Shown piece after piece: positions 33,505 to 57,739 of a DNA stretch of 64,000 bases. A model generated the notes under the pieces. The model was not told the origin of the DNA and did no database searches. It saw only the letters and a program-made list of their open reading frames with translations. The stretch is from a virus: IMG/VR virus record IMGVR_UViG_3300029220_000234, positions 1 through 64,000 of that record; one strand, written 5' to 3'. The stretch's first letter is position 1. Every line of letters begins with the position of its first letter. The position numbers were made by a program, and so were the translations under genes.

Positions 33505-33810
33505 CGTCAATAACCCACGACTAAAGTCGCGGGCTTGCTCCGGCAAGTCCGCACTTTAGAAGTGTCCGCAAGGATATGTTGACTACCCTTTGCGCATTAA
33601 GTTGCGCCCCGTTATAAGCGAATAGACAGTTACCGTACGGTGTAAATCCTAGCCGTGCGCTCTAAGGCAACACATCACGTAAAGCTGAGGCAAAGCCGAC
33701 AGGTGTGGCTGCATCAAGCCGTTTATAACCTTGGGGAAGGATTTTAACCCTCTTCGGAGGAGCGAGCAGCTTCTTTTTAGCTGCTAATTTACAGAAAGGA
33801 GCATGGCATC
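33505..33810 (+). ncRNA. Putative IscB omega-RNA scaffold
   Basis: 306-nt non-coding, GC-rich, hairpin-dense region between the left end and the iscB RBS (CTTGC-TCCG-GCAAG, CTCTTCGGAG, AGCAGCTTCTTTTTAGCTGCT). This is the position where IscB omega-RNAs are encoded. Confidence 0.5.
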
Positions 33811-35073
33811 ATGCAATATGTGTATGTACTCAACAGGCACGGCGAGCCTATGATGCCGTGCTCACCCGGAAAGGCTCGTTTGCTATTAAAACAGCAAAAA
33901 GCATGCGTTGTAAAGCGCACACCGTTTACAATCAAGCTCCTGTGCGGAAGCGTGGGATACAAACAACCTATCACTTTGGGCGTTGACGCAGGCAGCAAGC
34001 ATGTTGGTTTGTCTGCATCTACCGAGAAGCGCGAACTCTACCGTGAGGAATTTACTCCTCGCAGCGATGTAGCAGAATTGCTTTCTACGCGCAAACAAAA
34101 CCGCCGTTCGAGACGCAACCGTAAGACCCGTTACCGCGCACCGAGATTTGATAATCGCGTCCATAGCAAGCATAAAGGTTGGCTGGCACCTTCGGTTGAG
34201 GTAAAAATTCAAGAGCATATTACCGTCATCAAGCATATCTGCAAAATTTTGCCTATCTCTCTTGTAAGAGTAGAAACAGCAGAGTTTGACACGCAGCGCT
34301 TGAAGGCAATGCTTGCTGGAAAGCCTCTTCCTGTAGGAACAGACTATCAGCTTGGCGAGATGTACGACGAATACAATGTCCGTCAGTATGTCTTGAAGCG
34401 TGACCATTACACTTGTCAATGCTGTGGTGCTCATAATACTGCCGAAAAAGTAGTCAAGCTGCATGTACATCATCTCGAAAGCCGTAAGACTGGCGGCAAC
34501 GCTCCAAGCAACCTTGTTACTTTGTGTACCACATGCCACAAGAACCTTCACAAAGGAAGAGTGACCCTTGACGGCAAGGAACGCGGCAAGCCTCTTCGTG
34601 ATGCTGCTTTCATGGGAATCATGCGCAAAACCTTAATGACACGTTTGAAAGAAGAGCTGCCTATCCCTGTTCAGAGGACTTATGGCTATATCACTAAAAT
34701 GCGCCGTGAGCAAAATGACATCAAGAAGAGTCATACAAACGATGCTCGCTGTATTAGCAAGCATCCACTGGCTGAGCCTTGCAGCGTTTGCTACCGTACA
34801 AAGGCTATCAGACACCATAATCGGCAAACCCATAAAGCAAATTTCTCTAAAGGTGGCTACCGGAAAAGAAGTCAAACACCTTATATCGTTGAAGGCTACC
34901 GCTTGTGGGACAAGGTTCTCTACAAAGGGCAAGAATGCTTTGTATCCGGCCGCCGCTCTTCGGGAAGTTTTGCACTTAAAAAGCTGGATGGTACGAGCAT
35001 CTCTAAAGGCGTGACATTCAAAAAGCTGCGACTTTTAGAGCCCGCAGCAAATTATTTAATTGAAAGGATGTGA
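33811..35073 (+). CDS. iscB: IscB (OMEGA RNA-guided nuclease; RuvC-HNH-RuvC with PLMP N-terminus)
   Basis: PLMP-type N-terminus HGEPMMPCSPGKARLLLKQQKA. RuvC-I ITLGVDAGSKHVGLS. Zn finger DHYTCQCCG. HNH HHLESRKTGGNAPSNLVTLCTTCHKNLH. Arg-rich bridge helix. 420 aa. Confidence 0.85.
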   Translation: MQYVYVLNRHGEPMMPCSPGKARLLLKQQKACVVKRTPFTIKLLCGSVGYKQPITLGVDAGSKHVGLSASTEKRELYREEFTPRSDVAELLSTRKQNRRSRRNRKTRYRAPRFDNRVHSKHKGWLAPSVEVKIQEHITVIKHICKILPISLVRVETAEFDTQRLKAMLAGKPLPVGTDYQLGEMYDEYNVRQYVLKRDHYTCQCCGAHNTAEKVVKLHVHHLESRKTGGNAPSNLVTLCTTCHKNLHKGRVTLDGKERGKPLRDAAFMGIMRKTLMTRLKEELPIPVQRTYGYITKMRREQNDIKKSHTNDARCISKHPLAEPCSVCYRTKAIRHHNRQTHKANFSKGGYRKRSQTPYIVEGYRLWDKVLYKGQECFVSGRRSSGSFALKKLDGTSISKGVTFKKLRLLEPAANYLIERM

Positions 35074-35123
35074 ACGGGCAATTCCTCCCACGACTGAAGT
35101 CGCGGGTCTCCTTGCCCTAATTT

Positions 35124-37190: not shown

Positions 37191-37304
37191 AGCGGAACAC
37201 CAACGACAACAACCATCAAGGTTGTACAAGATTATGCGCTCATCCGCAAAATGCGGGTGGGCGTTCTTTTTTTGCAAAAAAACAAAAATAAAACATAGCA
37301 AAAA

Positions 37305-44180: not shown

Positions 44181-44194
44181 AAATTGCACCTGAT

Positions 44195-44340
44195 TTACTC
44201 GACAAGCTGTGCGAACTGACTACAATAAAAAATGTACGATAGATAACAAACATCGAAAAAGGCATTCTGCCTTTCGTACAATTCACAATTCTGCAGACAT
44301 AAGGCAGACTCACCGTCTTGGTGGGCCTGCCTTTTTTGTT
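44195..44340 (+). promoter_or_regulatory. Promoter-leader-terminator module A
   Basis: GTGCGAA(44209), TACAATAA(44221), GTACGATAGATA(44234), TCGTACAATTCACAATTCTGC(44274), hairpin AGGCAGACTCACCGTCTTGGTGGGCCTGCCT plus TTTTTTG, then the RBS. Confidence 0.6.
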
Positions 44341-44370
44341 TGCGCAACTATAAAAAAGGAGTATAACGCA

Positions 44371-45111: not shown

Positions 45112-45146
45112 GAAACATCTCACACACAGAAAGGGAGCATATTACT

Positions 45147-45473
45147 ATGGCTATTTTCAACACCAACGATTTCCTTCGCAAAACCTTCAGCAAGACCATT
45201 TTTGGTACTGCTGCACTTCGTCCGGAAGCGGTTTGTGCAGACGGCTTCACCCTGTCTATTCAGGCAAGCAGCATGCACTACTGTATACCGAGTGAGGACC
45301 TGTCGGACGGCGATTACTCTAAGGTCGAACTCAGCTACTTGTCTGAGGAGGTCGAAGAGTTTCTGCCGTTTGCTGAAGACGACGAGGCTCCGCTGGCTAC
45401 GGTCTACGGGTATGTGCCTGTAGAAATCGTGGATGCGGTTCTTGCCAAGCACGGCGGCATCGTCAACGTTTAA
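45147..45473 (+). CDS. Hypothetical protein, paralog of 4863..5213
   Basis: Shared motif AVCADGFTLSIQASSMHYC ... VPVEIVDAVLAKHGGI. Confidence 0.5.
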   Translation: MAIFNTNDFLRKTFSKTIFGTAALRPEAVCADGFTLSIQASSMHYCIPSEDLSDGDYSKVELSYLSEEVEEFLPFAEDDEAPLATVYGYVPVEIVDAVLAKHGGIVNV

Positions 45474-45488
45474 GAAGGAGGGATACCA

Positions 45489-45830
45489 ATGTTAAAGACT
45501 TTTACTGTCGTTGCCAATGAAGTTATTGGCTTATCCGCAACGGAATGCACGCTGATGCAGTTCAACTACAATCCGGAACAGATTCATGACCCCGAAACCG
45601 TTCTGCGCAGTGCCGTTAAGGACTATCTCCTGACGGATGAAGGCAAGCGTCAGTTGGAACTCAACTGTGGCTGCTGGAACTGGGGCGATGTCGATGACAT
45701 TCCCGACTCGTTCTTTTTGAACTATGGCCTAGCTAAAGTTGCTCCGCTTGATGTGGATATTGTCGTTGACCGCAACGAAAGCTTTACGGATGGCTGCGAC
45801 GAGGACGAGGAGGAGTTATGCAATGAGTAA
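45489..45830 (+). CDS. Hypothetical acidic protein
   Basis: RBS AAGGAGGGATACCA-ATG. Confidence 0.45.
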   Translation: MLKTFTVVANEVIGLSATECTLMQFNYNPEQIHDPETVLRSAVKDYLLTDEGKRQLELNCGCWNWGDVDDIPDSFFLNYGLAKVAPLDVDIVVDRNESFTDGCDEDEEELCNE

Positions 45831-45987
45831 GTTGTACATTAACGGCGAAGTTGTGCAAAACGCTATTGGCTGGCGCTTGACCGCAGTTCCCGAACTGGGT
45901 TGGGCTATTTTGCTGAGTGATGGCACGCAGAGCTTTATCCCGAAAACAGAAATCAAATTCATGTACGTTGAAAAGGGAGATGAATAA
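45823..45987 (+). CDS. Small hypothetical protein
   Basis: ATG overlapping the upstream stop. 54 aa. Confidence 0.35.
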   Translation: MSKLYINGEVVQNAIGWRLTAVPELGWAILLSDGTQSFIPKTEIKFMYVEKGDE

Positions 45988-45988
45988 C

Positions 45989-46729
45989 ATGCGCATTTGT
46001 AGTGTAAGCAATGTGGTCATAGAAATCACGCGCCGGTGCAATATGTGTTGTGCGCACTGCCTGCGCGGAGATGCCGAAAATGTCGATATTCAGGAAAGAT
46101 ACATAGATGCTTTTCTTGACAGCTTTGAGAAAGGCGCTTGTATCAGCTATATCGTTTTCAGCGGTGGAGAGATTTCTCTGAATATCCCGGCAATTCGGTA
46201 TATTCTGAAAGCCGTTAAAGAGCGAAACATCTCGGTTGGCAGCTTCTATATGGTCACCAATGGCAAGGCTGTCGATAAGATGGCGGACCTTGCTTTGGCG
46301 AGTCTTGAATGGTGGAACTACTGTTGCGACAAAGACGACGACATGTGCGGTCTTTGTATCAGCAGCGACAACTTCCACGAGAAAATCCCGCATGAAAGCG
46401 AAGGCTTCTTTAGTGGCTTGAAATACAGCCACGACGATAAGGTGACGGACTTTCGCTTTCATCCCCTTATCAACGAAGGCCGCGCCGAAACCATCAATTC
46501 GAGTCTCTACAGAAAATGCGAACCATGCGTGGAGAAGCTCGAATACGAAATCAATGGAGATGACGGTATCGATTTCTGGTGCAGCGAGATGTACCTGAAC
46601 GCTGTTGGTGATGTTGTCTCCGGCTGTAACTGGTCTTATGAGTCTCAGAAAAAGTACCGTATCGGGAACGTGATGGACAAAAACTGGCTGGATAATATCT
46701 CCGACAGCGAATGGTGCATTGCGAACTAA
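45989..46729 (+). CDS. Radical SAM domain protein
   Basis: CNMCCAHC is a CxxxCxxC [4Fe-4S] motif near the N-terminus. VFSGGEISL is a GGE SAM-binding motif. The Cys-rich C-terminus is SPASM-like. RBS AAAAGGGAGATGAATAAC-ATG. Confidence 0.65.
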   Translation: MRICSVSNVVIEITRRCNMCCAHCLRGDAENVDIQERYIDAFLDSFEKGACISYIVFSGGEISLNIPAIRYILKAVKERNISVGSFYMVTNGKAVDKMADLALASLEWWNYCCDKDDDMCGLCISSDNFHEKIPHESEGFFSGLKYSHDDKVTDFRFHPLINEGRAETINSSLYRKCEPCVEKLEYEINGDDGIDFWCSEMYLNAVGDVVSGCNWSYESQKKYRIGNVMDKNWLDNISDSEWCIAN

Positions 46730-46747
46730 AAAATATCATCAACAAAT

Positions 46748-46790
46748 AGCCACCGCCTCCTTAACGGGAACGGTGGCCTTTTTTCAAAAA
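46748..46790 (+). terminator. Intrinsic terminator directly before the next RBS
   Basis: GCCACCGCCTCCTTAACGGGAACGGTGGC followed by CTTTTTTC. Confidence 0.5.
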
Positions 46791-46802
46791 GGAGACCAAA
46801 AA

Positions 46803-48236
46803 ATGGCTGAAATTAAGAACATGCTTGCACAAATCGGTGCAATGCTGACCAATAAAAAAGATAAACCATTTTCTTACGAAGAACTTGCAGCAATGCTCAA
46901 AACCGACCCGGATGCTCTCAAGACCTTTGATGAAGTTTATAAGACTCAGGTCCTGGAAAGCCGAGAACTGCATGAGAACATGCTCCAGTGGAATTCGGCT
47001 ACTATCAAAGCAATTCTCGACAAAAAGGTCTATTTTCCGCCAGAACTCAATTCACTGATTGACCGCATCGTTGATGAACTGATTCCTGAAACGCGTCTGT
47101 ATATCTACAATGCGAAACACGGCGGTTATTACGTGAAATACTCTGCCAACCGCGATTTTGTGACGGATGTGACGAACAAAGAGCTCAATCGCTACCCGGA
47201 GGAACTTCGTCCGCAGCTTACCGGAAAGTTGATGATGGTTGATGTTTCGGAGCCGTCGTACAAGTCACTGCTCCAGAATTACGCAGAATACAAGAACGCC
47301 AAAAACGACCGCATGAAAATGCTCTACTACAACCTCTTCCGTCAGGGTCTTGATATCCTTGACCTTGACGACTTCACTTATCAGATGTTGGAGATGAATC
47401 CCATTTCTATGGGTTTCTGGCTCCCGCCTCTGGTAGGAGGGTTGTACGGTAACAAGTTCTTCAAAGTGCCGGATACGAAGATTCTTCACGTTCCCATCAC
47501 GATGCTGCAGCTTACCCGTCTTGGCTTTGAGACTCTAAATCCCGTGACGAAAGAAATCGTGAACCGCTATTGCCAGAAGGTCTTCCATCTCGACAGACAC
47601 GAAGATTATTTCATTAAGACGGGCACGTACTCCTCCAAATACGAATTCCGAAACGCTCATATCCACGAGCCTAAGGAAGTCGATGAGATGGGCGAGTATT
47701 TCCTGCTCCTAAATCATCTGACTTGCTCTATGGCAGCTCCCACGAATAACCGCAGTTTCTACGGCGCAAACACCACCAATGAGTGGGTTGTCCGAGAGTA
47801 TATCAAGGATAAGGAAAACAATCCCACCATCTACAATGGCCTGCCGCTTCATACCGAATATCGCGTGTTTGTGGATTTTGACACGAAGGAAATTCTTGGT
47901 GTGAGTCCCTATTGGCGCAGTGACGTTATGAAGAATAAGTTCAAGGAAGTCGCCAGCCCACAGGAACGCCATGATTACGTTGTCTACCAGATACACGAAG
48001 ATGTTCTGAACCAACGTTACCATGAGAGCGTTCAGACCGTTCTGAATGAGATGGAAAAGGTCATTCCTCGAATTAAGCTGACAGGGCAGTGGAGTATTGA
48101 TGTAATGCGCAATGGTGATGACTACTATATCATCGACATGGCCCTTGCTGAACATTCCGCTCTGAACGACTGCGTACCGAAAAATCTGCTTCGCGCTTAT
48201 CCTCAGCAGTGGCTGCCGGGGGAATCGAACGGCTGA
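46803..48236 (+). CDS. Hypothetical protein, possibly ATP-grasp-like
   Basis: RBS AAAAGGAGACCAAAAA-ATG. EYRVFVDFDTKEILGV resembles the ATP-grasp E.R motif. Weak. Confidence 0.4.
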   Translation: MAEIKNMLAQIGAMLTNKKDKPFSYEELAAMLKTDPDALKTFDEVYKTQVLESRELHENMLQWNSATIKAILDKKVYFPPELNSLIDRIVDELIPETRLYIYNAKHGGYYVKYSANRDFVTDVTNKELNRYPEELRPQLTGKLMMVDVSEPSYKSLLQNYAEYKNAKNDRMKMLYYNLFRQGLDILDLDDFTYQMLEMNPISMGFWLPPLVGGLYGNKFFKVPDTKILHVPITMLQLTRLGFETLNPVTKEIVNRYCQKVFHLDRHEDYFIKTGTYSSKYEFRNAHIHEPKEVDEMGEYFLLLNHLTCSMAAPTNNRSFYGANTTNEWVVREYIKDKENNPTIYNGLPLHTEYRVFVDFDTKEILGVSPYWRSDVMKNKFKEVASPQERHDYVVYQIHEDVLNQRYHESVQTVLNEMEKVIPRIKLTGQWSIDVMRNGDDYYIIDMALAEHSALNDCVPKNLLRAYPQQWLPGESNG

Positions 48237-48272
48237 TTACAAACAACTAATAACATTTTGGGAGGTAAAATT

Positions 48273-49352
48273 ATGGCCACTATTAACGACGTAAAATATC
48301 TGACAGAAGAAGGAATTTATGAATTTCTTCACAACCCGAACGAAAATTATCTTGAGGGGTTCGCGGTAGATAAGGAACCCGCTTTCTATTGCCCTAGCAA
48401 CTGCGAAGATGGAACGTATCTAAGGCTCTTCAAGGCCCCGGTTAACAGTAGGATGACAGAGTTGCTTATGCAGGATTTTAGATGGAGCGCACGAGAAGGC
48501 TGTTACAACACGCCGCTCCCTGAAGACTGCACAATCAGCTTTAAGCGTGCCGGATTTATTGCCGATTCATCCAAGTTCTGGATTCTGTCGGATTATCTTC
48601 TTAAAGTTTGCCCTAAATTGAAACCTGAATTAACAGATTTCCGTCAGCAGTTTGAACGGGCATTCTGCAAGAAAATTCTCGACGATTTCAGTATGAGCCG
48701 TGACCTAATCAATAGCAAAGAAGCAGAAGGACGTGCAGAGCAGTATGCCATCTATGCTATGCTCAAGAAGAAGCCGGTTTATCATGAATATGTAATTGAC
48801 GATGCAATGAGTATTGTTCGCAGTTTTGGCTTTAGAAGCATGGCAAACTATATCCTTGACGCGAATGATTATCTTGAAAGTGCATTAGCCAACCTCAAAG
48901 ATAGAGTAATAAGAAGCTTTGTTTTTCAAGGAGTATGGTACAGCAGACGAGCATGTGATTTTCCTAAAAAAGTTGAAGCTGCAAGACTGGCTGATAAAAT
49001 TGCACATACGTTCATTGCTGCCGACAATGACTCTCAACGTATTGCAAAAAGTGTATGTGCATATTGCTCACGGGAACTTAATGATAGAAAAAACGTGACC
49101 ATCACGATTGGAACCAGCGATGATAACGGTATTCCCGTTAAAGTTTCTTGCGATACCCTGCTTCATTATGAGCCAACCTCCAAAGAGATTTTTATCAATG
49201 TCAAATCCGCAAGCAAGAACGAACGCGAAAAAATCAATCAATACGTAAAAGATAACGGCGCTTTTGTAAGCGAAGACCTTGTTCCAATGAACCTTTTACA
49301 GTCTGTTATCTCCTACGGTTGGGAACATTGGAATCGAGATTTTCCTGAATAA
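48273..49352 (+). CDS. Hypothetical protein
   Basis: RBS GGGAGGTAAAATT-ATG. 359 aa. Confidence 0.5.
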   Translation: MATINDVKYLTEEGIYEFLHNPNENYLEGFAVDKEPAFYCPSNCEDGTYLRLFKAPVNSRMTELLMQDFRWSAREGCYNTPLPEDCTISFKRAGFIADSSKFWILSDYLLKVCPKLKPELTDFRQQFERAFCKKILDDFSMSRDLINSKEAEGRAEQYAIYAMLKKKPVYHEYVIDDAMSIVRSFGFRSMANYILDANDYLESALANLKDRVIRSFVFQGVWYSRRACDFPKKVEAARLADKIAHTFIAADNDSQRIAKSVCAYCSRELNDRKNVTITIGTSDDNGIPVKVSCDTLLHYEPTSKEIFINVKSASKNEREKINQYVKDNGAFVSEDLVPMNLLQSVISYGWEHWNRDFPE

Positions 49353-49422
49353 TAATCCTAGATATTTGTATCACTCATACAAAGCTGGAAAACTCCTGGA
49401 TTGACTTTCCCAAAAAATAACA

Positions 49423-49467
49423 GTTAAGACCACTGCCCCGAAAAGGGTAGTGGTCTTATTTTTTTGC
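49423..49467 (+). terminator. Intrinsic terminator
   Basis: AAGACCACTGCCCCGAAAAGGGTAGTGGTCTT followed by ATTTTTTTG. Confidence 0.55.
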
Positions 49468-49499
49468 ACAATACTTACCATAAATTACCAGAAAGAAAA

Positions 49500-49533
49500 A
49501 CGTTGTGCATCTGTGCGAATTGCATATAATACA
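49500..49533 (+). promoter_or_regulatory. Phage-type promoter driving tnpB (GTTGTGCATCTGTGCGAATTGCATATAAT)
   Basis: Near-identical to the helicase promoter at 37305. Confidence 0.55.
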
Positions 49534-49648
49534 AAATATAGAACGAAAGGCATCAAAAAATATCGTTGGTCGGGCAAAATCGGACCAAAAGGCTAGGGCA
49601 GCTCGGAAATACAGAAGGAGTCAAATCTAATGGAAAGGAGGCTTCACG

Positions 49649-50980
49649 GTGAAAATAACTTCAAGCTATGCCGTAGAAATAAAAAAGCAGCGGATGTTCG
49701 ATGATACTATAAAATTGTATCGTGAAGCCGTTTCTTTCTTGATTGATTGCTTTAATAAAGAATGGCTGGCAATTCAATCAGTTGATAAGGCGAAAGCCAA
49801 ATTCAACTTTGCTGAAAAGCTGGTACATACAACAAAATACAATGTAGCAAAGTATGATTTTGATGCCAAATTCTATAAGTTTCCCAGCTACTTGCGCAGA
49901 GCTGCTATTCAAGCGGCATTGGGCTCGGTAAGCAGTTACCGCAGCAACTACAAGAACTGGGAAGCTAACGGTAAGGTTGGCAATGAGCCGAAGCTACAAT
50001 GCGATAGGTTTTGTTTCCCGACTTTCTATAAAACCGTTATGTTTACTGAAAGCAATGAACCTAACCAGTGCTACTTAAAGCTGTATAGCAAAAATGACTG
50101 GGTTTGGGTTCCTGTTGCAATGCGTGCTACCGATGTGAAGTACATCACGAAATACTGGTCGCATTGCCAAAAGAGTGCTCCCACTCTCGAAAAGAAGTAC
50201 GGAAAGTATTTCCTACGCTTCGCTTTCGAAGAAGAGGTGAAGCTCTCTGATACTGAAATTCAGGATAGGCGTATCTGCGCTGTTGACCTTGGCCTCAATA
50301 CCGACGCTGTGTGCAGCATCATGACTGCCGATGGAACTGTCATTGCAAGAAAGTTTATCAATTTTGCAAGTGAAAAAGACCATCTGTATCATGTGCTAAA
50401 CCGTATTAAGCGTAAACAAAGGGAACGCGGTCCCAAGAGCACTGCCGCTATGTGGCGATACGCCAAAGCCTTGAATGATGATATAGCGAAAAAGGTGGCT
50501 GCCGCCATTACCGAGTTTGCAGTGCTTTACTCTGTCGATGTAATTGTTTTTGAACATTTATCATTTACAGGCAAAAAGCACGGCGGCAGTAAAGCACAAA
50601 AGTTGTCGATGTGGAAGCGTAATTCTATACAGGATTATATAGAACATAAGGCGCATCGCTGCGGCATCCGTATTTCGCGTATCTGCGCTTGGGGGACAAG
50701 CAAACTTGCCTTTGATGGCAGCGGTTCTCTCAAGCGTGATGAAACCAACCACGCCATTGCAGCTTTTGCAAGTGGCAAACGATACAACTGTGACCTTAGT
50801 GCGAGCTACAACATTGGCGCTCGCTACTTTGTCAGAGAGTTGCTAAAACCCTTGCCAGTGATGGTGAGGTCTCAGCTTTCGGCTAAAGTTCCGGAAGCTG
50901 AGCGTAGAATCCAAGTTACACTTGCCACGCTTAAAGTCTTGTACCCTGAGTATCAAAAACTTACGGCACAAGCAGCGTAA
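49649..50980 (+). CDS. tnpB: TnpB-like RNA-guided nuclease (IS200/IS605 OrfB family) lacking the C-terminal Zn finger
   Basis: GTG start after GGAAAGGAGG. RuvC-I RICAVDLGLNTDAVCS. RuvC-II VDVIVFEHLSF. WGTSKL. RuvC-III-like NCDLSASYNIGARYF (D..S..NI). There is no CxxC...CxxC. Confidence 0.8.
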   Translation: MKITSSYAVEIKKQRMFDDTIKLYREAVSFLIDCFNKEWLAIQSVDKAKAKFNFAEKLVHTTKYNVAKYDFDAKFYKFPSYLRRAAIQAALGSVSSYRSNYKNWEANGKVGNEPKLQCDRFCFPTFYKTVMFTESNEPNQCYLKLYSKNDWVWVPVAMRATDVKYITKYWSHCQKSAPTLEKKYGKYFLRFAFEEEVKLSDTEIQDRRICAVDLGLNTDAVCSIMTADGTVIARKFINFASEKDHLYHVLNRIKRKQRERGPKSTAAMWRYAKALNDDIAKKVAAAITEFAVLYSVDVIVFEHLSFTGKKHGGSKAQKLSMWKRNSIQDYIEHKAHRCGIRISRICAWGTSKLAFDGSGSLKRDETNHAIAAFASGKRYNCDLSASYNIGARYFVRELLKPLPVMVRSQLSAKVPEAERRIQVTLATLKVLYPEYQKLTAQAA

Positions 50981-51140
50981 GATGTACAGATGCTAACTGA
51001 GTCATTAGTTTTCTTGCGGTAGAGGTATCCATCCAGATACCTTGGCTGAGAGATTACCGTATCTTATGTTAGAACGCCGCTTCCCCTAAAAGGGGCGGGA
51101 AGCCCGCGACTTTAGTCGTGGGAGGATTCACAAGGTCTGA
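50900..51140 (+). ncRNA. Candidate TnpB omega/reRNA region (3' end of tnpB through the downstream hairpins)
   Basis: After the stop codon come CCGCTTCCCCTAAAAGGGGCGGGAAGC and then CCCGCGACTTTAGTCGTGGG. The latter is the reverse complement of the IscB-element terminal hairpin. The region ends just before module B. Position-based inference only. Confidence 0.3.
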
Positions 51141-51147
51141 CAAATAG

Positions 51148-51282
51148 GCTTGCTCAAACGTGCGATTTCACTAAAATTGTAATTGTACGATAGATAACAG
51201 CCTTTTGGCCTAAATGCGTACAATTCATATTCTGCAAAGAATCAGCAGACTCACCATCTCGGTGGGCCTGCTTTTTGTTTTG
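51148..51282 (+). promoter_or_regulatory. Promoter-leader-terminator module B
   Basis: CTTGCT...GTGCGAT...GTACGATAGATA(51185)...GCGTACAATTCATATTCTGC...hairpin AGCAGACTCACCATCTCGGTGGGCCTGCT plus TTTTTG. It is followed by a 6-codon mini-ORF (MKIIPN) before the real gene. Confidence 0.6.
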
Positions 51283-51359
51283 CAAGCAATAAAAGGAGTA
51301 ATGAAAATTATACCGAACTGAACAAAATCTAAAATCACACAACAAAAGGAGAAGTAATT

Positions 51360-52202
51360 ATGTATTGCATTCAGTATGACGAAATCTGCAAAATGCACGG
51401 CTTTGAGATTGAACATGATGCTCATGGTGACGGAGTAACCCTCAAATACCCAGCAGGTCATACCCCGAAAAAATCCTTTCGTCTTTCTCAGAATCATCTT
51501 TCTGAGGAAGTATCGGCTATGGCTGAAAAGTACCGCAGTGACAGCTTTGCCATGTTTATATTTAGAGCTGCTGCGGCGGCGGGAAACACCATCAGTCTTT
51601 CCGAGACTATGGAGGAAAACAAAAAAGTTTCCGCAGCTCTCTCTGATTTAGCGGACGACCTGAAACAAGCAGAGCTGGAAGCCAAGACTTGGGTTTGCAC
51701 CGACCCTGATACATGCCAGTGGCGGCGTCAGGTTGGCGGAACTCGATACGAGCTGTACGACATTTTCGAAGCTCCGAATGGCACTTATTTTGCTGTTCAC
51801 GGTGAAGTTGACCCGACCGAGCTTGACCCAGATGACTACGACCAACTGCTTGAGGCTTATTCCGGCTTGCTGGACTCTGCCAACTGTGAGAGCGAACGCT
51901 GGGCACTCATTGCGGAAGCACAGTTTGAGACCGAAGAACTTTCTATGGAGCGTGAACGCTTTTCGACTTTCGAAGGAGCTGAAAGAGCGATTCGGAAAAA
52001 GGTTGGTGCAGACGTTTCAGATAAGAATGCTGTGACCGAAACTCGTCTCGATGCGATTCGCAAGCTCGATAAGCTGCGTCTTGCCATCTTTTTGAACGAT
52101 GTTCGCAGAGGCGTGAAAGACTTTCCTTCCGATAACATGAGCTGGTGTGACTGGCTTAGCAAACCGGATGACGGACATTTGCTGGATGTGAAGCCTGTTT
52201 AA
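51360..52202 (+). CDS. Hypothetical acidic protein
   Basis: RBS AAAGGAGAAGTAATT-ATG. 280 aa. Confidence 0.5.
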   Translation: MYCIQYDEICKMHGFEIEHDAHGDGVTLKYPAGHTPKKSFRLSQNHLSEEVSAMAEKYRSDSFAMFIFRAAAAAGNTISLSETMEENKKVSAALSDLADDLKQAELEAKTWVCTDPDTCQWRRQVGGTRYELYDIFEAPNGTYFAVHGEVDPTELDPDDYDQLLEAYSGLLDSANCESERWALIAEAQFETEELSMERERFSTFEGAERAIRKKVGADVSDKNAVTETRLDAIRKLDKLRLAIFLNDVRRGVKDFPSDNMSWCDWLSKPDDGHLLDVKPV

Positions 52203-52214
52203 TTGTGTAATTTG

Positions 52215-52250
52215 CTGTTTGTCGCAAAATATGGTATAATAGAAATGAGG
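52215..52250 (+). promoter_or_regulatory. Extended -10 promoter (TATGGTATAAT)
   Basis: TGnTATAAT immediately upstream of the zeta-like kinase RBS GAGGTGATACC-ATG. A different promoter class from the phage consensus. Confidence 0.45.
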
Positions 52251-52257
52251 TGATACC

Positions 52258-52815
52258 ATGAAAATTTATACTCTGATTGGCGGCGTAAACGGCGCAGGTA
52301 AATCCAGCTTAACAGGTTCGTTGCGCTCTGAGCGTAACGATTTTGGCATCGTGGTAGACCCCGACAAGCTGACTGCTCAGTGTGGTGGTGACGAATACGA
52401 AGGCGGCAAACTTGCTGTCGAACGCATCGAGCATGCTCTGAAAGACGGCGTGAATTTTACGCAGGAGACAACTCTTTCCGGTGGATACCCAAAACGCCTT
52501 TGCAAGCGTGCAAAAGAAGCTGGGTATTATATTCGTCTGTACTATGTCGGTCTTGATACCGCCGAAGAAAGCATTCGGCGAATCCGGAACCGTGTAGAGC
52601 GTGGGGGACACGATATTCCCGCTAAGGATGTTAACGCCCGCTTTTCTCACCGTTTTGAGGATGTCCTCAAAATTTTGCCGTACTGCGATGAAGCTAAGTT
52701 TTTCGATAATGACAATGGATTTGTGCTTGTTGCGGAATATCGCAACGGGCAGCTTCTTCCTATTGGAACATATCGACCAACTTGGCTCAGTCAACTTCTG
52801 AATCAAGCCCAATAA
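52258..52815 (+). CDS. Zeta-toxin / AAA_33-like P-loop kinase
   Basis: Walker A GGVNGAGKSSL, and VVDPD, in the same order as zeta/UNAG-kinase family proteins. 185 aa. Confidence 0.6.
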   Translation: MKIYTLIGGVNGAGKSSLTGSLRSERNDFGIVVDPDKLTAQCGGDEYEGGKLAVERIEHALKDGVNFTQETTLSGGYPKRLCKRAKEAGYYIRLYYVGLDTAEESIRRIRNRVERGGHDIPAKDVNARFSHRFEDVLKILPYCDEAKFFDNDNGFVLVAEYRNGQLLPIGTYRPTWLSQLLNQAQ

Positions 52816-52849
52816 CATTTTTGCCGTTCACCTTCGGATGAGCGGCATT

Positions 52850-52992
52850 TTTTGTTTGCTATACTGTGCGAACGGTATAAAATAGTAGTTGTACGATAGA
52901 TACCATCTACTTAGGCGCATCCAGCGTTCGTACGATTCACAATTCTGCTTTAAGGCGGATTTCCCGGTTTTTGGGAGGCCCGCCTTTTTGCA
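52850..52992 (+). promoter_or_regulatory. Promoter-leader-terminator module C
   Basis: GTGCGAACGG, TATAAAAT, GTACGATAGATACCAT(52890), TTCGTACGATTCACAATTCTGC, hairpin AAGGCGGATTTCCCGGTTTTTGGGAGGCCCGCC plus TTTTTG. Confidence 0.6.
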
Positions 52993-53014
52993 TTCACAGA
53001 AAGGAAGATTGAAA

Positions 53015-53578
53015 ATGACCGTTTACGATTACCGAGAAATCACCCTAAAAGATGACTTGTGCCTCGAAATAAGCCGTGACACGGACATCGAAAACTCACG
53101 CGAAAATGACTGCAATGCAGCCACTTTCTATTGTCTTAAAAGCCCTCGCCACAAGATAGGCGATATCATCGACAGTTCCTACTACCTTAGCGAAACAAAG
53201 CGGACGCTTACGAAAACAGGCGAATATGTCATTTTGCCCATTTATATCTATGAGCATAGTGGCATTGCGCTCCGCACGGTTCCGTTCCATGATGTTTGGG
53301 ATTCTGCCTGTATTGGCTTTGCGGTCGCAAACATCAAGGATTTCATGAAGCAGGGAGTTGCTGACGCACCCGTATCCCGCTTTGAAGCAATGCGCCGCGC
53401 CGAGGACTGCATCCGCAACGAACTCGAAGCATTCAGCGACTATCTGCAGGGAAATTGCTGGCAATACTGCATCACGGATGAGGACGGCAATGTCGTTGAT
53501 TCCTGCAGCGGCTTTATCGGCGATGACCTTGAAAAGAACGGTATGCTGAACTACATCTGCGATTACATCGAAAAGTAA
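53015..53578 (+). CDS. Hypothetical protein
   Basis: RBS GAAAGGAAGATTGAAA-ATG. Confidence 0.5.
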   Translation: MTVYDYREITLKDDLCLEISRDTDIENSRENDCNAATFYCLKSPRHKIGDIIDSSYYLSETKRTLTKTGEYVILPIYIYEHSGIALRTVPFHDVWDSACIGFAVANIKDFMKQGVADAPVSRFEAMRRAEDCIRNELEAFSDYLQGNCWQYCITDEDGNVVDSCSGFIGDDLEKNGMLNYICDYIEK

Positions 53579-53593
53579 GAAGGAGAAAGCACT

Positions 53594-53902
53594 ATGGAAA
53601 TCACGTTAAAAGGCAATAATGGCGAAAAGGTTGTCATCCCCATCGAAGACCTGATTCAGAAATACTGGTCTGACGAAAACAGCAAGCCCAACCGCATTGA
53701 GATGTCTGCTACGGTCGAGGATGAGACCATCCTTGCCACCATGACAATTTGCGATGAGAAGAAGGAGAACTACCTGAGTGTTGACCTTGAGAGTCGAAAT
53801 GAAAAGTTCGACACCGAAGCGCTCTGGTGTTCTCTTGAAGCTCCGAATACGCTGAATCCGTTCGTGACCGGATACTTGTATTCCGGTAGGAGGTTTATAT
53901 GA
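53594..53902 (+). CDS. Hypothetical protein
   Basis: RBS GAAGGAGAAAGCACT-ATG. Confidence 0.45.
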   Translation: MEITLKGNNGEKVVIPIEDLIQKYWSDENSKPNRIEMSATVEDETILATMTICDEKKENYLSVDLESRNEKFDTEALWCSLEAPNTLNPFVTGYLYSGRRFI

Positions 53903-54627
53903 AAACTATTACAAAGGAAATCTTCGATTCCTATATCGCAAATGACTCGGATACCGTTCTGGAAGGTGTTGTCACCAACACTTTCGGAACCACTACTTTT
54001 TGGCGCTTTGTGCGCGTTCCTTTGGCTGAGGGAGAACATTATGTCGAAGCTCTCTACGCGCAGAGCTCCTTCTCTTTCCCTCTGGCTATGGGCGTGAACC
54101 ATTTCAGCATTAAGAATGGTCTCGAGTTCATGGCGTTCATCGTTGACCACAAAGAGACCTACTGCAAGTCTGTTGAGTTTGCTCTGCTCTTTGACGATTA
54201 TAGGCAGGCTAATTCTAACTGGGTCACGGCTGAAATGAGAGAAAAGTTTCTCGCATACATCGAGAAGAACTACACTCCCTCCGCCGAGGTGATGAAGGAC
54301 AAGAGGTTTCAGTCCTTGACATACGACAACGCCATCAAGCAGTATGTTTATGACCGGAACAACGATACCACTTCGCTCGATGTGATGTTGAAACTTCTGG
54401 AGAAATTCGATGATTCTGTTGTCGTTGACTACCTTGCAAACCCCACCGGATGGGAAGAGCGGTTTGCCAAGGTTCTGGAACAGTCTGGAATTTGGGATTC
54501 GTTCGCCAAGGAGTTTGCCGAACCTTTTGTGGCATATCTGGTTCAGGCCCGGCAACATCTGGATGCGTTCAGCGCGGACCCTTCTTGCTGGGAAAGCGTC
54601 TGCAAGAATCTGATGGCTGCTGTCTAA
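53899..54627 (+). CDS. Hypothetical protein
   Basis: Coupled ATGA overlap. RBS AGGAGG. Confidence 0.5.
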   Translation: MKTITKEIFDSYIANDSDTVLEGVVTNTFGTTTFWRFVRVPLAEGEHYVEALYAQSSFSFPLAMGVNHFSIKNGLEFMAFIVDHKETYCKSVEFALLFDDYRQANSNWVTAEMREKFLAYIEKNYTPSAEVMKDKRFQSLTYDNAIKQYVYDRNNDTTSLDVMLKLLEKFDDSVVVDYLANPTGWEERFAKVLEQSGIWDSFAKEFAEPFVAYLVQARQHLDAFSADPSCWESVCKNLMAAV

Positions 54628-54652
54628 GACCGCAAAAATGGAGGAAAACAAG

Positions 54653-55225
54653 ATGAAAGTAAAAAGAATGATTGAGTCTGACGTTGATACTTTTAAGGTC
54701 GGAGACGTCATCGAGGTCAAACTTGCAGATGGTGTAAATGTACAGGCTATGGCAGTGCAGCAAGAAGAGGACGGCATGGTTTTCTGTCTAGTTGATTGCC
54801 TGCCTAGCGAGCACCCGATGAACAGCACCCGTACCAATGAAGGAGGTTACGAAGAGAGTGACCTGCGTAAGAAGCTGAATGGTGAGATTCTGAATCTCTT
54901 CCCGGTTGGACTCACGGATATGATGGCTCCGTTTGATAACGGTGACCTGCTCCGTCTGCCGACCGAGAAAGAGATTTTCGGAAAGAACTACTACGGTGAG
55001 TACGAAAGCCCGTATGTGAAGCAGTGGAAGCCTATGAAGAAGCGCAGGAACCGTATGGCATTCGATGGCACTAAGGATGAGAACTTGCAGTGGTACTGGC
55101 TGATGAACAAGGTCAGAGAATCCGCTACTTACTTCTCCCTTGTCGGCAACTACGGTTATGCGTACAACAACTACGCTTCTTACTCTTTTGGCGTTCGCCC
55201 CGCTTTCAAACTCAAGAACCATTAA
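54653..55225 (+). CDS. Hypothetical protein
   Basis: RBS AAAATGGAGGAAAACAAG-ATG. Confidence 0.5.
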   Translation: MKVKRMIESDVDTFKVGDVIEVKLADGVNVQAMAVQQEEDGMVFCLVDCLPSEHPMNSTRTNEGGYEESDLRKKLNGEILNLFPVGLTDMMAPFDNGDLLRLPTEKEIFGKNYYGEYESPYVKQWKPMKKRRNRMAFDGTKDENLQWYWLMNKVRESATYFSLVGNYGYAYNNYASYSFGVRPAFKLKNH

Positions 55226-55244
55226 CGCTTTTTGCACAAACTTT

Positions 55245-55382
55245 TCTTGACCTTTTGTACGAACGGCATAGAATAGTATTCGTACGATAGATACTATCCA
55301 CAGGGACGCTATTTGCGTTCGTACAATTTACAATTCTGCTTTAAGGCGGGCTTCCTGATTCTGGGAGGTCCGCTTTTTTGCG
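55245..55382 (+). promoter_or_regulatory. Promoter-leader-terminator module D
   Basis: TTGACC...TGTACGAACGG...CGTACGATAGATACTAT(55280)...TTCGTACAATTTACAATTCTGC...hairpin AAGGCGGGCTTCCTGATTCTGGGAGGTCCGC plus TTTTTTG. Confidence 0.6.
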
Positions 55383-55406
55383 TTCAAAAAAGGAGTGTAT
55401 TTGAAA

Positions 55407-56132
55407 ATGGCGAACAATGTAACCCGTACAACTTGTCGTTCTTGCAGCAACCCATACTATGTTCGAGCACGAATCATCGCAAAAAGTGCCGGTAGTCCCG
55501 CGTATCGATTTGACATCAATGAAAGTGTAAGTCTTCCGATGTACCAACATGGCTTTGTCAGGGACATAATTGACGGCGGCAAAATATATGTCGTGCAGAT
55601 GTTCGAATCGACCGAATACCGCTGCTATGCGTGGCCTGACATGAGACCGGAATACGGATACAAAGATATCGGTTCCATCTACGGAAAGCCGAACCCGCAC
55701 AAGCCACTTCCGGTCAGTAACTACAATCACACCGTTCGATTTTTGCTGGGTTTCCTGTACTTCTATAATGTTGATTTGACACCCGCTTATCAGAGCCACT
55801 ATGCCTGGAACGAAGCACGGAAAGTCGCATATCTTGCTGATATTTTCGCGGGAAAAAATGCCGGAGAAGTCGTATTTCAGGAAGTTCCGTCATCTGACCC
55901 GAAACCAAAATATCAACTCATCAAAGGAGAACAAGAAGCCATCACACTTCGAGAGTTTTACGAAAATCGACTCTTGTACAAAAAAGCATGCTACAACGAC
56001 ATTCGTGCGGAGGATGTTTCCCAGTTTAACTACACCTTGCTGCGAATGATTGTCTACAACCAAAAGCACAAACCTTCCACTACATACGAAGACATATCAC
56101 TTATCGGCGGGATACTCTTAGGAAGGTACTAA
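55407..56132 (+). CDS. Hypothetical protein
   Basis: RBS AAAAAGGAGTGTATTTGAAA-ATG. Confidence 0.5.
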   Translation: MANNVTRTTCRSCSNPYYVRARIIAKSAGSPAYRFDINESVSLPMYQHGFVRDIIDGGKIYVVQMFESTEYRCYAWPDMRPEYGYKDIGSIYGKPNPHKPLPVSNYNHTVRFLLGFLYFYNVDLTPAYQSHYAWNEARKVAYLADIFAGKNAGEVVFQEVPSSDPKPKYQLIKGEQEAITLREFYENRLLYKKACYNDIRAEDVSQFNYTLLRMIVYNQKHKPSTTYEDISLIGGILLGRY

Positions 56133-57722: not shown

Positions 57723-57739
57723 AGAAAGGAAGTATTTAT

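What the first reader, a model, noticed from the sequence alone, without database searches (positions are those of the whole stretch)
49500..51140. Zn-finger-less TnpB wired to a phage promoter, with a downstream hairpin that is the exact reverse complement of the IscB-element end hairpin
The 443-aa protein keeps all three RuvC motifs (DLGLN, FEHL, CDLSASYNIGAR) but has no CxxC...CxxC finger. It is transcribed from a promoter nearly identical to the helicase promoter (TTG(T/C)(G/A)CATCTGTGCGAAT...ATATAAT). No matching left-end hairpin is visible upstream. About 120 nt past the stop codon sits CCCGCGACTTTAGTCGTGGG, the reverse complement of the IscB left-end hairpin CCCACGACTAAAGTCGCGGG. This suggests both loci derive from the same IS200/605 lineage, recognised by one TnpA supplied in trans. 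Alternatively the TnpB locus is a decayed or domesticated element whose reRNA ends at that hairpin, with the guide being the next roughly 16-20 nt (GGATTCACAAGGTCTGAC...).
Basis: partly seen in the sequence, partly recalled or inferred. Interest (0 to 1): 0.7.

Follow-up and report, generated by a model that had tools for sequence, protein, structure and literature searches.

The report
Immobilised TnpB guide-RNA module in phage
This is a transposon-derived RNA-guided nuclease gene (TnpB) with its guide RNA, stranded in a gut phage after losing its left end and transposase; it is an ordinary kind of element in an instructive setting, because related phages still carry the exact uninterrupted site its guide would recognise.

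Summary
ORF 49649-50980 encodes a 443-aa TnpB-fold protein. Its RuvC residues D213, E302 and D382 are invariant, and it has no Cys finger. That absence is family-wide (PF27142, hundreds of 50%-identity clusters, mostly in Clostridia, usually next to a Y1 TnpA).

The hairpin at 51103-51122 is the subterminal right-end (RE) hairpin of this IS200/IS605 family. The element ends 9 nt later, at 51131 (...AGGATTCAC|). This boundary rests on four filled/empty site comparisons, all 3' of TTGAA.

A covarying, roughly 225-nt omegaRNA scaffold (50907-51131) is closed by a helix between GAATCC (50907-50912) and GGATTC (51123-51128). The guide therefore starts at 51132 (AAGGTCTGAC...), not at GGATTCAC.

The reverse-complement match to the IscB element is expected.

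In this window the TTGAA site and the left-end (LE) hairpin are missing, consistent with a roughly 58-nt deletion. That places tnpB 65 nt downstream of a native phage promoter. The unit can no longer transpose, and the window has no tnpA.

Five related contigs carry the intact target TTGAA|AAGGTCTGAC.... This fits RNA-guided homing or exclusion between phages, which is inferred and not shown.

Verdict: new member of a known kind.

The parts
49425..49458 (+). Intrinsic terminator of the upstream 364-aa phage gene (context, phage backbone)
   Evidence: 14-bp stem followed by a T-run. It lies in the stretch that is 100% identical to L001 and is shared with the element-free relatives L217-L223.
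49503..49535 (+). Native phage promoter (TTGTGCATCTGTGCGAATTGCATATAAT), a member of an 11-copy promoter family in this phage
   Evidence: families D3 and D5; 86% identical over 36 nt to the helicase promoter at 37301-37336. The same promoter and 5'UTR precede a 175-aa HTH gene in the element-free phages L217-L223.
49536..49601 (+). Phage 5'UTR. The phage backbone ends at about 49601 (...GGCTAGGGCAG)
   Evidence: Homology to L217-L223 stops at 49599-49601.
49602..49648 (+). Element-derived leader (CTCGGAAATACAGAAGGAGTCAAATCTAATGGAAAGGAGG...): interior of the element left arm plus the tnpB ribosome-binding site. The TTGAA target, the 17-nt spacer and the LE hairpin that should precede it are missing
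   Evidence: Aligns to L227 downstream of its LE hairpin. Homology to the tnpA-bearing relatives L071 and L117 starts at 49624-49633.
49649..50980 (+). tnpB-like gene, 443 aa. RuvC D213/E302/D382 are intact and there is no zinc finger
   Evidence: AlphaFold model with pLDDT 84.7 matches Cas12f and TnpB structures (Foldseek E 5e-15, TM about 0.6). dN/dS is 0.07-0.10 against relatives.
50907..51131 (+). Predicted omegaRNA (reRNA) scaffold. It overlaps the last 74 nt of the ORF and the whole right end
   Evidence: 42-sequence alignment A3. Six helices and 29 pairs, 94.9% paired against 27-49% when partners are slid. Covariation score 0.359 against 0.095 or less; 0 of 500 shuffles reach it.
50907..50912 (+). 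5' arm (GAATCC) of the long-range helix that closes the scaffold; it pairs with 51123-51128 (GGATTC)
   Evidence: Three covarying versions occur in the family: GAACCT/AGGTTC, GAATCC/GGATTC and GGATCT/AGATCC. The helix also appears in the MFE fold of the window sequence alone.
51081..51095 (+). Penultimate hairpin of the scaffold (TTCCCC TAAAA GGGG..)
   Evidence: Helix 5. All 4 pairs show compensatory changes across the family.
51103..51122 (+). Subterminal right-end hairpin CCCGCGAC TTTA GTCGTGGG, with a conserved G.T pair at stem position 4. It is both the TnpA recognition hairpin (as DNA) and the last stem of the omegaRNA
   Evidence: Pairs 2 and 5 covary; pair 4 is G.U in 40 of 42 sequences. 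Found in the RE of 68 of 103 family loci.
51123..51131 (+). Right-end tail AGGATTCAC (transposon-encoded motif); the element ends after C51131
   Evidence: Homology to L001-L008 stops at 51131. The RE of the L009 element, which sits at the window's empty site 20093|20094, ends at the same base. L019 and L224-L227 hold the uninterrupted site.
51132..51151 (+). Predicted guide segment AAGGTCTGACAAATAGGCTT (flank DNA transcribed as the 3' end of the omegaRNA)
   Evidence: First bases outside the element. Unique in the window. In L019, L224, L226 and L227 the identical sequence is preceded by TTGAA; in L225 by TTAAA.
33506..35123 (-). Complete non-autonomous IscB element of the same end-hairpin lineage; the transposon top strand is the window minus strand. 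Parts: RE 33506-33533 (GTCAATAA plus hairpin), HEARO omegaRNA 33506-33748 (+), iscB 33811-35073 (+), LE hairpin 35087-35106 plus a 17-nt spacer, and TAM TTCAT (reverse complement of ATGAA at 35124)
   Evidence: HEARO 79 bits, E 2e-16, model start at 33506. Twelve IscB copies show (T)TCAT|17 nt|hairpin ... hairpin+TTATTGAC|.

Best explanation
The locus is the right-hand two thirds of a non-autonomous IS200/IS605-family element: tnpB, omegaRNA and right end.

How it got here (inferred from comparisons). An element like the one still intact in contig L227 inserted 3' of a TTGAA in the 5'UTR of a phage operon. A deletion of about 58 nt then removed the TTGAA and the left-end hairpin. Later, recombination inside tnpB joined it to a right end that sits at a second TTGAA site. 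The result cannot be moved by a TnpA transposase, and it is transcribed from a native phage promoter.

How it most likely works (inferred, not shown). The mRNA runs through the ORF into the right end. TnpB binds the structured 3' part (scaffold 50907-51131) as its omegaRNA. The next 16-20 nt or so (AAGGTCTGACAAATAGG...) serve as the guide. The complex cuts DNA that carries 5'-TTGAA followed by that sequence. The phage's own copy is protected because TTCAC, not TTGAA, precedes the guide match. The cleavable allele exists in related phages. In mixed infections the nuclease would break the competitor genome, which is then either lost or repaired from the TnpB-bearing genome. That is transposase-independent homing with co-conversion of flanking markers.

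The missing zinc finger is a trait of the whole protein family, not decay. The hairpin shared with the IscB element is the common TnpA recognition hairpin of one IS lineage, read from opposite strands.
For: Shown by tool results:
1. Protein. TnpB/Cas12f fold. NCBIfam guided_TnpB E 5e-20. D213/E302/D382 invariant. dN/dS 0.07-0.10.
2. Family. A Y1 TnpA lies directly upstream in at least 52 loci. Two 100% identical 2061-bp copies occur in one Enterocloster genome. There are 531 loci in species genomes.
3. Ends. TTGAA|17 nt|LE hairpin in 23 of 37 distinct junctions, plus about 7 more that are off by one base. RE hairpin plus AGG(A)TTCAC, then unique flank.
4. Four scarless filled/empty pairs, all 3' of TTGAA:
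   - window 20093|20094 against L009;
   - L217-L223 against L001;
   - L019/L224-L226 against L227;
   - L019/L224-L227 against window 51132.
5. omegaRNA. Strong covariation, including the closing helix that ties the RE tail to the ORF 3' end.
6. Left side. The phage backbone runs to about 49601, and L227 shows the intact LE that is missing here. The window has no tnpA (best E 0.9) and no LE hairpin.
7. The window and L001 are 100% identical from 46649 to about 49749, 79-95% identical through the rest of tnpB, and unrelated after 51131.

From the literature:
- IscB omegaRNA is bounded by the RE, TnpB and IscB elements share ends, and one TnpA acts in trans (10.1101/2023.03.14.532601).
- TnpB makes its omegaRNA from its own mRNA (PMC10278001 abstract).
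- Homing into co-infecting phages has been proposed (PMC13565253).
Against: - There are no RNA or cleavage data for this locus or for any member of this zinc-finger-less family.
- TTGAA as the nuclease TAM is inferred from insertion sites only.
- The gene is a recombinant of two diverged copies, so the protein and RNA parts could be mismatched, although the ORF and all helices are intact.
- The low dN/dS may reflect selection while the copies were still mobile.
- Only 5 contigs with the target allele were found, and none is shown to share a host with this phage.
- The TNB region that replaces the finger is the least confident part of the model (pLDDT 59-78).
Confidence: 0.72

Rival explanations
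1. Inert relic. The unit is a dead-end fragment of an IS that happens to lie behind a promoter. The ORF is still intact only because the events are recent. It does nothing for itself or for the phage.
For: - The LE and TAM are missing and the window has no tnpA.
- The same window holds a clearly dead TnpB fragment at 17624-18175 with its RE and an orphan HEARO RNA, so decay of such elements is common here.
- The left 3.1 kb is 100% identical to L001, so the arrangement is young.
Against: - The 443-aa ORF is full length with all catalytic residues.
- All six RNA helices are kept in the window copy, including the closing helix.
- dN/dS is 0.07 between the two promoter-fused copies.
- The LE-less arrangement is found on many contigs: P0003 alone is on 24.
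- The matching target allele exists in relatives.
Confidence: 0.2
2. Domesticated regulator or other non-nuclease role (TldR-like). The protein-RNA complex binds DNA without cutting it and represses a promoter, for example the promoter that starts at 51149, next to the guide.
For: - Immobilised TnpBs recruited for regulation are known (PMC10705468; PMC10691335).
- The guide sequence abuts the -35 region of the next phage promoter.
- A few family members have lost the RuvC-III aspartate (P0128, P0206, P0254).
Against: - D213, E302 and D382 are intact here and invariant in close relatives.
- The phage's own copy of the guide match is preceded by TTCAC, not by the TTGAA site, so self-binding is not expected.
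- The guide is simply the flank of the insertion site, as in mobile copies.
Confidence: 0.05
3. The hairpin is an RNA-level signal unrelated to transposition. It could be a terminator for tnpB, or a 23-nt antisense pairing site between the tnpB 3'UTR and the 5' end of the IscB omegaRNA that couples the two systems.
For: There is 23 nt of perfect complementarity between 33514-33536 and 51100-51122, and 36 nt at 83% between 35083-35118 and 51091-51126 (I3 and I4). Both regions are expected to be transcribed.
Against: - No T-run follows the hairpin (one search lists no terminator there).
- The same hairpin with its conserved G.T pair sits at the element boundaries in hundreds of loci with or without the partner element. 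The complementarity therefore follows from shared transposon ends read from opposite strands.
Confidence: 0.03

Closest known systems
IS200/IS605 TnpB with omegaRNA/reRNA (ISDra2 TnpB, PDB 8h1j; ISFba1 TnpB, 8iaz)
   Same: - Same fold (Foldseek E 1e-10) and the RuvC D-E-D triad.
- Guide RNA that overlaps the ORF 3' end and the right end, with the guide being the flanking DNA.
- Insertion 3' of a 5-nt motif (TTGAA here, TTGAT in ISDra2 from my own knowledge).
- A Y1 TnpA partner elsewhere in the family.
   Different: - No C4 zinc finger in the TNB domain, throughout the family.
- Sequence similarity to canonical models is below their cut-offs (guided_TnpB 72 bits against 100; Pfam TNB 19.5 against 26.3).
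- This copy has lost its left end and transposase, and it is driven by a phage promoter.
ISGst families of Geobacillus stearothermophilus (Meers et al. 2023)
   Same: - TnpB-type, IscB-type and gene-less (PATE) elements share near-identical LE/RE hairpins and rely on one TnpA in trans.
- The IscB omegaRNA is built on the RE.
- The IscB TAM is TTCAT, and the IscB copies here also follow (T)TCAT.
   Different: Here the elements live in a population of gut phages, not in a bacterial chromosome. No TnpA is present in the window, and the TnpB copy is no longer mobilisable.
Cas12f (AsCas12f 8j12, OsCas12f 9nzq)
   Same: Best structural matches over the whole length (TM 0.58-0.66). NCBIfam Cas12f2 E 3e-12.
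   Different: There is no CRISPR array or tandem repeat nearby. The guide comes from a transposon end. The zinc finger is missing.
TldR / nuclease-dead immobilised TnpB regulators
   Same: Immobilised tnpB with a fixed guide next to a host (here phage) promoter.
   Different: The catalytic residues are intact. The guide is an unmodified insertion-site flank. There is no conserved partner gene.
Free-standing homing endonuclease genes of T-even phages (Seg and Mob; review PMC13565253)
   Same: A nuclease gene without its own transposase, lying between conserved phage genes. It is predicted to cut the allele of co-infecting relatives that lacks it.
   Different: Recognition would be by a guide RNA plus a 5-nt motif, not by protein-DNA contacts. 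This function is not demonstrated here.

Membership tests
TnpB (OMEGA RNA-guided nuclease of IS200/IS605) | RuvC-like nuclease fold with the split D-E-D triad | tested here: met
   D213, E302 and D382 are invariant. The AF2 model matches TnpB and Cas12f structures.
TnpB (OMEGA RNA-guided nuclease of IS200/IS605) | C4 zinc finger (CxxC...CxxC) between RuvC-II and RuvC-III | tested here: not met
   Absent here and in 77 of 78 scorable family representatives. The literature notes that the finger is lost in some large TnpB branches (PMC10691335), so it is typical but not strictly defining.
TnpB (OMEGA RNA-guided nuclease of IS200/IS605) | Curated sequence-model score above the cut-off | tested here: not met
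   NF040570 scores 72.1 bits against a cut-off of 100. PF07282 scores 19.5 against 26.3. Precomputed hits place the protein in PF27142 'Aq_aa04'. NCBI names a relative 'TnpB-related protein'.
TnpB (OMEGA RNA-guided nuclease of IS200/IS605) | Conserved structured RNA that overlaps the ORF 3' end and the RE, followed by a variable guide | tested here: met
   Covariation in A3. Sequences diverge completely after ...TTCAC.
TnpB (OMEGA RNA-guided nuclease of IS200/IS605) | RNA-guided, TAM-dependent DNA cleavage | not testable with these tools
   Needs biochemistry or an interference assay.
IS200/IS605 insertion sequence (mobile element) | Subterminal imperfect hairpins at both ends on one strand | tested here: not met
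   The RE hairpin is present (51103-51122). The LE hairpin is absent from the window copy. Both are present in family members (L182, L227).
IS200/IS605 insertion sequence (mobile element) | Scarless insertion 3' of a short target motif, without target duplication | tested here: met
   Four filled/empty pairs at TTGAA. Family logo.
IS200/IS605 insertion sequence (mobile element) | Y1 (HUH) TnpA transposase in the element or available in trans | tested here: not met
   None in the 64-kb window. Present next to tnpB in at least 52 related loci. Whether the host genome supplies one cannot be tested here.
TldR (nuclease-dead TnpB repressors) | Loss of RuvC catalytic residues | tested here: not met
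   The D-E-D triad is intact.
TnpB clade RIIIr-4 (zinc-finger-less, virus-enriched; Altae-Tran 2023) | RuvC-III aspartate replaced by histidine | tested here: not met
   The motif is N-C-D382-L-S, with the aspartate kept.
Type V CRISPR effector (Cas12f) | Adjacent CRISPR array that supplies the guides | tested here: not met
   No tandem repeats in 44000-56000.
IscB element (for the partner locus 33506-35123) | IscB protein plus an upstream HEARO omegaRNA bounded by the transposon RE | tested here: met
   NF040563 328 bits; RRXRR and HNH domains. HEARO 79 bits, E 2e-16 (gathering score 83), starting exactly at the predicted RE boundary 33506.

The most novel reading that the evidence does not exclude
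The left-end-less TnpB-omegaRNA unit has become a free-standing, RNA-guided homing endonuclease gene of the phage. Expressed from a phage promoter, it would cut the uninterrupted TTGAA|AAGGTCTGAC... allele carried by co-infecting relatives. That allele is present in five contigs, and one of them has a TTAAA variant that could be an escape. The unit would then spread, or exclude the rival, through recombinational repair without any transposase. This would also explain why recombination breakpoints between otherwise identical phages fall inside tnpB and exactly at its right end.
Probability: 0.35. Interest if true: 0.65.

Novelty: new member of a known kind. Interest (0 to 1): 0.35.

Why it matters
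It gives a fully resolved natural example of how an IS200/IS605 guide-RNA nuclease ends up fixed in a phage. Base-level boundaries, a target motif (TTGAA), four empty/filled site pairs, an intact sister copy and the target allele in relatives are all in hand.

That makes two things directly testable:
- whether a zinc-finger-less TnpB family (PF27142, not characterised as far as I could find) is an active, compact RNA-guided nuclease;
- whether such nucleases act as transposase-independent homing or exclusion devices between competing phages, which has so far mostly been proposed on theoretical grounds.

It also shows that the reverse-complement hairpin is the expected signature of TnpB- and IscB-type elements that share one transposon end. 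That is useful for annotating such loci.

Tried and rejected
- Megablast of 49400-51400 against GenBank phages gave no match. The phage is only distantly related to Faecalibacterium phages (helicase 52%).
- Rfam has no family for the tnpB 3' RNA.
- A search for an LE hairpin or a second RE hairpin upstream of tnpB found none. A search for tnpA in the window found none.
- I first read L003, where the element is joined to window 44344, as evidence of transposition of the unit 49338-51131. I rejected that: the junction keeps the last 15 nt of the upstream phage ORF, so L003 is a deletion variant.
- I first read the L009 element as a normal insertion. Its right end and target are normal, but it starts inside tnpA, so it is 5'-truncated. 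This remains unexplained.
- RIIIr-4 membership was rejected because the aspartate is kept. A TldR-like role was rejected for the same reason. A CRISPR association was rejected. The terminator reading of the hairpin was rejected.
- L019's left flank and the empty site of the IscB insertion gave nothing new in viral contigs.
- L001/L217 share no similarity with L019, so the genome that carried both insertion sites before the presumed recombination could not be reconstructed.
- No paper in the library links TnpB with TTGAA.
- dN/dS cannot be assigned to the period after immobilisation, because the compared 3' parts come from different copies.
Full report
**1. What is there**

ORF 49649-50980 (+, GTG start, 443 aa) is real. 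It is preceded by three features:
- a terminator at 49425-49458;
- a copy of the phage's own promoter motif at 49503-49535;
- a strong ribosome-binding site.

The promoter motif occurs 11 times in the window. There are 8 matches against 0.2 expected.

The hairpin CCCGCGACTTTAGTCGTGGG lies at 51103-51122, 122 nt after the stop codon. Its exact reverse complement is at 33514-33533. A one-mismatch copy is at 35087-35106. That is 3 matches against 0.00 expected.

**2. The protein**

Sequence models only graze it:
- Pfam Cas12f1-like TNB, E 1e-3, below cut-off;
- NCBIfam guided_TnpB, 72 bits against a cut-off of 100;
- Cas12f2, E 3e-12;
- PHROG 'transposase'.

The family is nevertheless large:
- more than 5,800 close hits, carrying the precomputed Pfam label PF27142 'Aq_aa04';
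- 531 loci in GTDB species genomes, mainly Lachnospiraceae and Oscillospiraceae and often multi-copy;
- 1,546, 916 and 309 representatives of 50%-identity clusters at E 1e-3, 1e-10 and 1e-30.

D213 (VDLGLN), E302 (VFEHL) and D382 (NCDLSASYNIGARYF) are invariant in 14- and 42-sequence alignments.

No member has the CxxC...CxxC finger. The segment reads AWGTSKLAFDGSG...GKRYN. 77 of 78 scorable full-length representatives, down to about 30% identity, have no CxxC there.

An AlphaFold model (pLDDT 84.7) matches Cas12f and TnpB structures over its whole length: AsCas12f E 5e-15 with TM about 0.6-0.66, ISFba1 and ISDra2 TnpB at E 1e-10.

Loss of the finger in 'some large TnpB branches' is already noted by Altae-Tran et al. 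2023 (PMC10691335). Their finger-less, virus-enriched clade RIIIr-4 has D-to-H in RuvC-III. That is not the case here, so this is another finger-less branch.

**3. It belongs to a true IS200/IS605 element**

- A 146-aa Y1 transposase (Pfam Y1_Tnp, 139 bits) lies directly upstream of the tnpB-like gene in at least 52 related loci.
- Two 100% identical 2,061-bp copies in Enterocloster aldenensis define the ends:

  TTGAA|AAACGGCACACCGCATT[CTCGTTACTTTAGTGATGAG]TTAGG ... tnpA ... tnpB ... [CACGTGACTTTAGTCATGTG]AGGTTCAC|
- Across the family, 37 distinct left junctions show TTGAA immediately outside the element in 23 cases, plus about 7 that are off by one base.
- The right end is always the hairpin C-N-Y-G-Y-GAC TTYA GTC-R-TG-K-G followed by AGG(A)TTCAC and then unrelated DNA.
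- Stem pairs 2 and 5 covary. Pair 4 is almost always G.T.

**4. Exact boundary in the window**

Three independent comparisons place the right boundary at 51131|51132.

- Relatives L001-L008 (gene 93-97% identical) lose all similarity to the window after 51131.
- In L009-L018, a related element sits precisely at the window's uninterrupted site 20093|20094 (GGGGATTTGAA|TGGAATC). Its last 32 nt equal window 51099-51131.
- Contigs L019 and L224-L227 carry the uninterrupted site ...GATGAGGTTGAA|AAGGTCTGACAAATAGGCTTGC....

Two further filled/empty pairs also lie at TTGAA:
- L217-L223 against L001: GTTTTGAA|CCTGCTC;
- L019/L224-L226 against L227: CTGATTGAA|GCGAGGTGAGCC.

**5. The guide RNA**

I aligned the last 90 nt of the ORF through the right end from 42 family loci (A3). 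RNAalifold predicts six helices with 29 pairs, 18 of them with compensatory changes.

| Measure | Observed | Control |
|---|---|---|
| Cells forming a standard pair | 94.9% | 27-49% with partners slid by 1-3 columns |
| Covariation score | 0.359 | 0.095 or less (slid) |
| Shuffles reaching the observed value (cells paired, covariation score) | 0 of 500 | |

The most telling helix is long-range. GAATCC at 50907-50912, inside the ORF, pairs with GGATTC at 51123-51128, in the tail after the hairpin. Relatives have GAACCT/AGGTTC or GGATCT/AGATCC instead. The minimum-free-energy fold of the window sequence alone also forms this helix.

The scaffold is therefore 50907-51131. The hairpin is its last stem. 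The 9-nt tail belongs to the scaffold, and the guide begins at 51132. Rfam has no model for this RNA.

**6. Why the IscB hairpin is the reverse complement**

The partner locus is a complete non-autonomous IscB element at 33506-35123. Its parts are:
- HEARO omegaRNA 33506-33748 (79 bits, E 2e-16, model start exactly 8 nt outside the hairpin);
- iscB 33811-35073 (NF040563, 328 bits);
- hairpins at both ends.

Twelve IscB copies from viral contigs share the architecture (T)TCAT|17 nt|hairpin ... hairpin+TTATTGAC|, read on the strand opposite to iscB.

Of 152 hairpin occurrences in viral contigs, the TnpB-like gene is always upstream on the hairpin's strand (7 cases). IscB is always on the other strand (85 cases). 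Some of the rest are gene-less deletion derivatives.

This matches Meers et al. (10.1101/2023.03.14.532601):
- TnpB-, IscB- and PATE-type elements share ends;
- one TnpA moves them in trans;
- the GstIscB TAM is TTCAT.

Both nucleases sit beside the same top-strand hairpin. The two element types here differ in target and end motifs: TTGAA/TTCAC for TnpB and TTCAT/TTGAC for IscB.

**7. How the window copy arose**

*Left junction.* Element-free relatives L217-L223 share the window's terminator, promoter and 5'UTR up to about 49601. They continue GCTCAGTTTTGAA|CCTGCTC into a 175-aa HTH gene.

L227 holds an intact tnpA-less copy that is 96% identical to window 49597-51131:

TTGAA|AAATAAGTCGCCGCATT[CTCGTGACTTTAGTCGTGAG]TTAGGCTGCTCGAAAACATAGAAGGAGTCAAATCTAATGGAAAGGAGG...

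The window reads ...GGCTAGGGCAG|CTCGGAAATACAGAAGGAGTCAAATCTAATGGAAAGGAGG....

The simplest history is an L227-like insertion at the TTGAA of that 5'UTR, as in L001. A deletion of about 58 nt between the short similar motifs TAGGGC and TAGGC then removed the TTGAA, the spacer and the LE hairpin. This is inference from the three-way alignment.

*Right side.* The window and L001 compare as follows:
- 100% identical from 46649 to about 49749;
- 79-95% identical through the rest of tnpB;
- unrelated after 51131.

A recombination breakpoint therefore lies inside tnpB. The window's right part comes from a copy inserted at a different TTGAA site, the one that is empty in L019 and L224-L227.

The window has no tnpA (best E 0.9) and no LE hairpin. 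This unit cannot be moved by TnpA. The IscB element, which has both ends, could be.

**8. Function**

Shown:
- an intact ORF;
- an intact catalytic triad;
- an intact, covarying guide-RNA scaffold;
- a native promoter;
- dN/dS of 0.07-0.10, with the caveat that the compared parts may have diverged while still mobile;
- presence of the exact TTGAA-plus-guide target in five related contigs, one with TTAAA;
- the guide 17-mer matches nowhere else in the window.

Inferred: the complex cuts that empty allele in co-infecting phages. The outcome would be exclusion or transposase-independent homing. This mode has been proposed in the literature (PMC13565253) but is not tested here.

Rivals are an inert young relic (about 0.2), a non-cutting regulator (about 0.05) and an RNA-level role for the hairpin (about 0.03).

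**9. Verdict**

This is a new member of a known kind: a TnpB-omegaRNA module of an IS200/IS605 lineage that also includes IscB elements. Two less common traits stand out. The zinc finger is absent across the whole family, and this copy is immobilised behind a phage promoter. Interest is moderate (0.35). It would be higher if phage-against-phage RNA-guided homing were demonstrated.

Noticed in passing
window 5875-6135 (+) and ORF 6193-7836: A HEARO (IscB omegaRNA) match above the Rfam gathering score (91 bits) is followed by a flotillin/SPFH-like gene, not by iscB. It is an orphan omegaRNA. Its 5' end differs from that of the IscB element at 33506.
   Followed up: partly
window 17624-18175 and 18235-18293: This is a 5'-truncated fragment of a second, distantly related TnpB (25% identity to the 443-aa protein). 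It also has no Cys finger, and RuvC-II Glu appears to be replaced. It sits behind a promoter-like motif at 17580. It is followed by a right end (...TTTAGGCGGGGTAATTCAC|) that is the reverse complement of the 5' end of the orphan HEARO at 5875-5924. So there is a second TnpB-type/IscB-type pair that shares an end. The whole block (about 17492-18287) is absent from relatives L009-L018.
   Followed up: partly
window 33490-33505 and 35124-35531: The IscB element sits exactly between a ribosome-binding site (AACGGAGGAAATTACC) and the ATG of a lipoprotein-like gene (MKRFIGTALALCCLALPLAGC...). The predicted IscB guide is therefore that RBS region, and the TAM is the start codon (ATGAA = reverse complement of TTCAT). 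All eight distinct IscB left junctions examined end in CAT, the reverse complement of ATG. This may mean they tend to insert next to start codons. No empty site was found.
   Followed up: partly
window 10583-10652 (+): HDV-like ribozyme of the Faecalibacterium prausnitzii type (Rfam RF02682, 60 bits against a gathering score of 44), lying across the end of ORF 8862-10556 and the start of the next ORF.
   Followed up: no
window 44198-44341, 51149-51282, 52855-53003, 55246-55393, 57579-57732, 60284-60393, 61700-61751: A repeated module of about 150 nt: a second promoter type (CTTG..GTGCGA..TAnAAT), then a conserved TGTACGATAGATAnCA box, a conserved leader (TTCGTACAATTCACAATTCTGC) and a terminator-like hairpin. 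It looks like a regulated leader cassette in front of the genes in the right half of the window.
   Followed up: no
window 16608-17501: The 297-aa ORF next to the TnpB fragment is the homologue of a protein that carries the precomputed Pfam label PF26125 'AcrVA2-like' in L009-L018. AcrVA2 is an anti-Cas12a protein (my own knowledge). The local Pfam copy gave no hit.
   Followed up: no
L009-L018, positions 2812-4486: A related element inserted precisely at TTGAA upstream of the phage helicase. It has a normal right end, but it begins in the middle of tnpA and has no left end. How a 5'-truncated copy came to have a clean left junction is unexplained.
   Followed up: partly
L225 (ERZ772870 NODE-929), site homologous to window 51132: The uninterrupted target allele has TTAAA instead of TTGAA in front of the guide match. 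This could be a variant that escapes cleavage.
   Followed up: no
L119, L123, L129, L032 (viral contigs): The same insertion site holds a full IscB element (hairpins 1578 nt apart) in one contig. In others it holds internally deleted, gene-less derivatives (354 nt and 103 nt). This is a series of PATE-like decay products.
   Followed up: no
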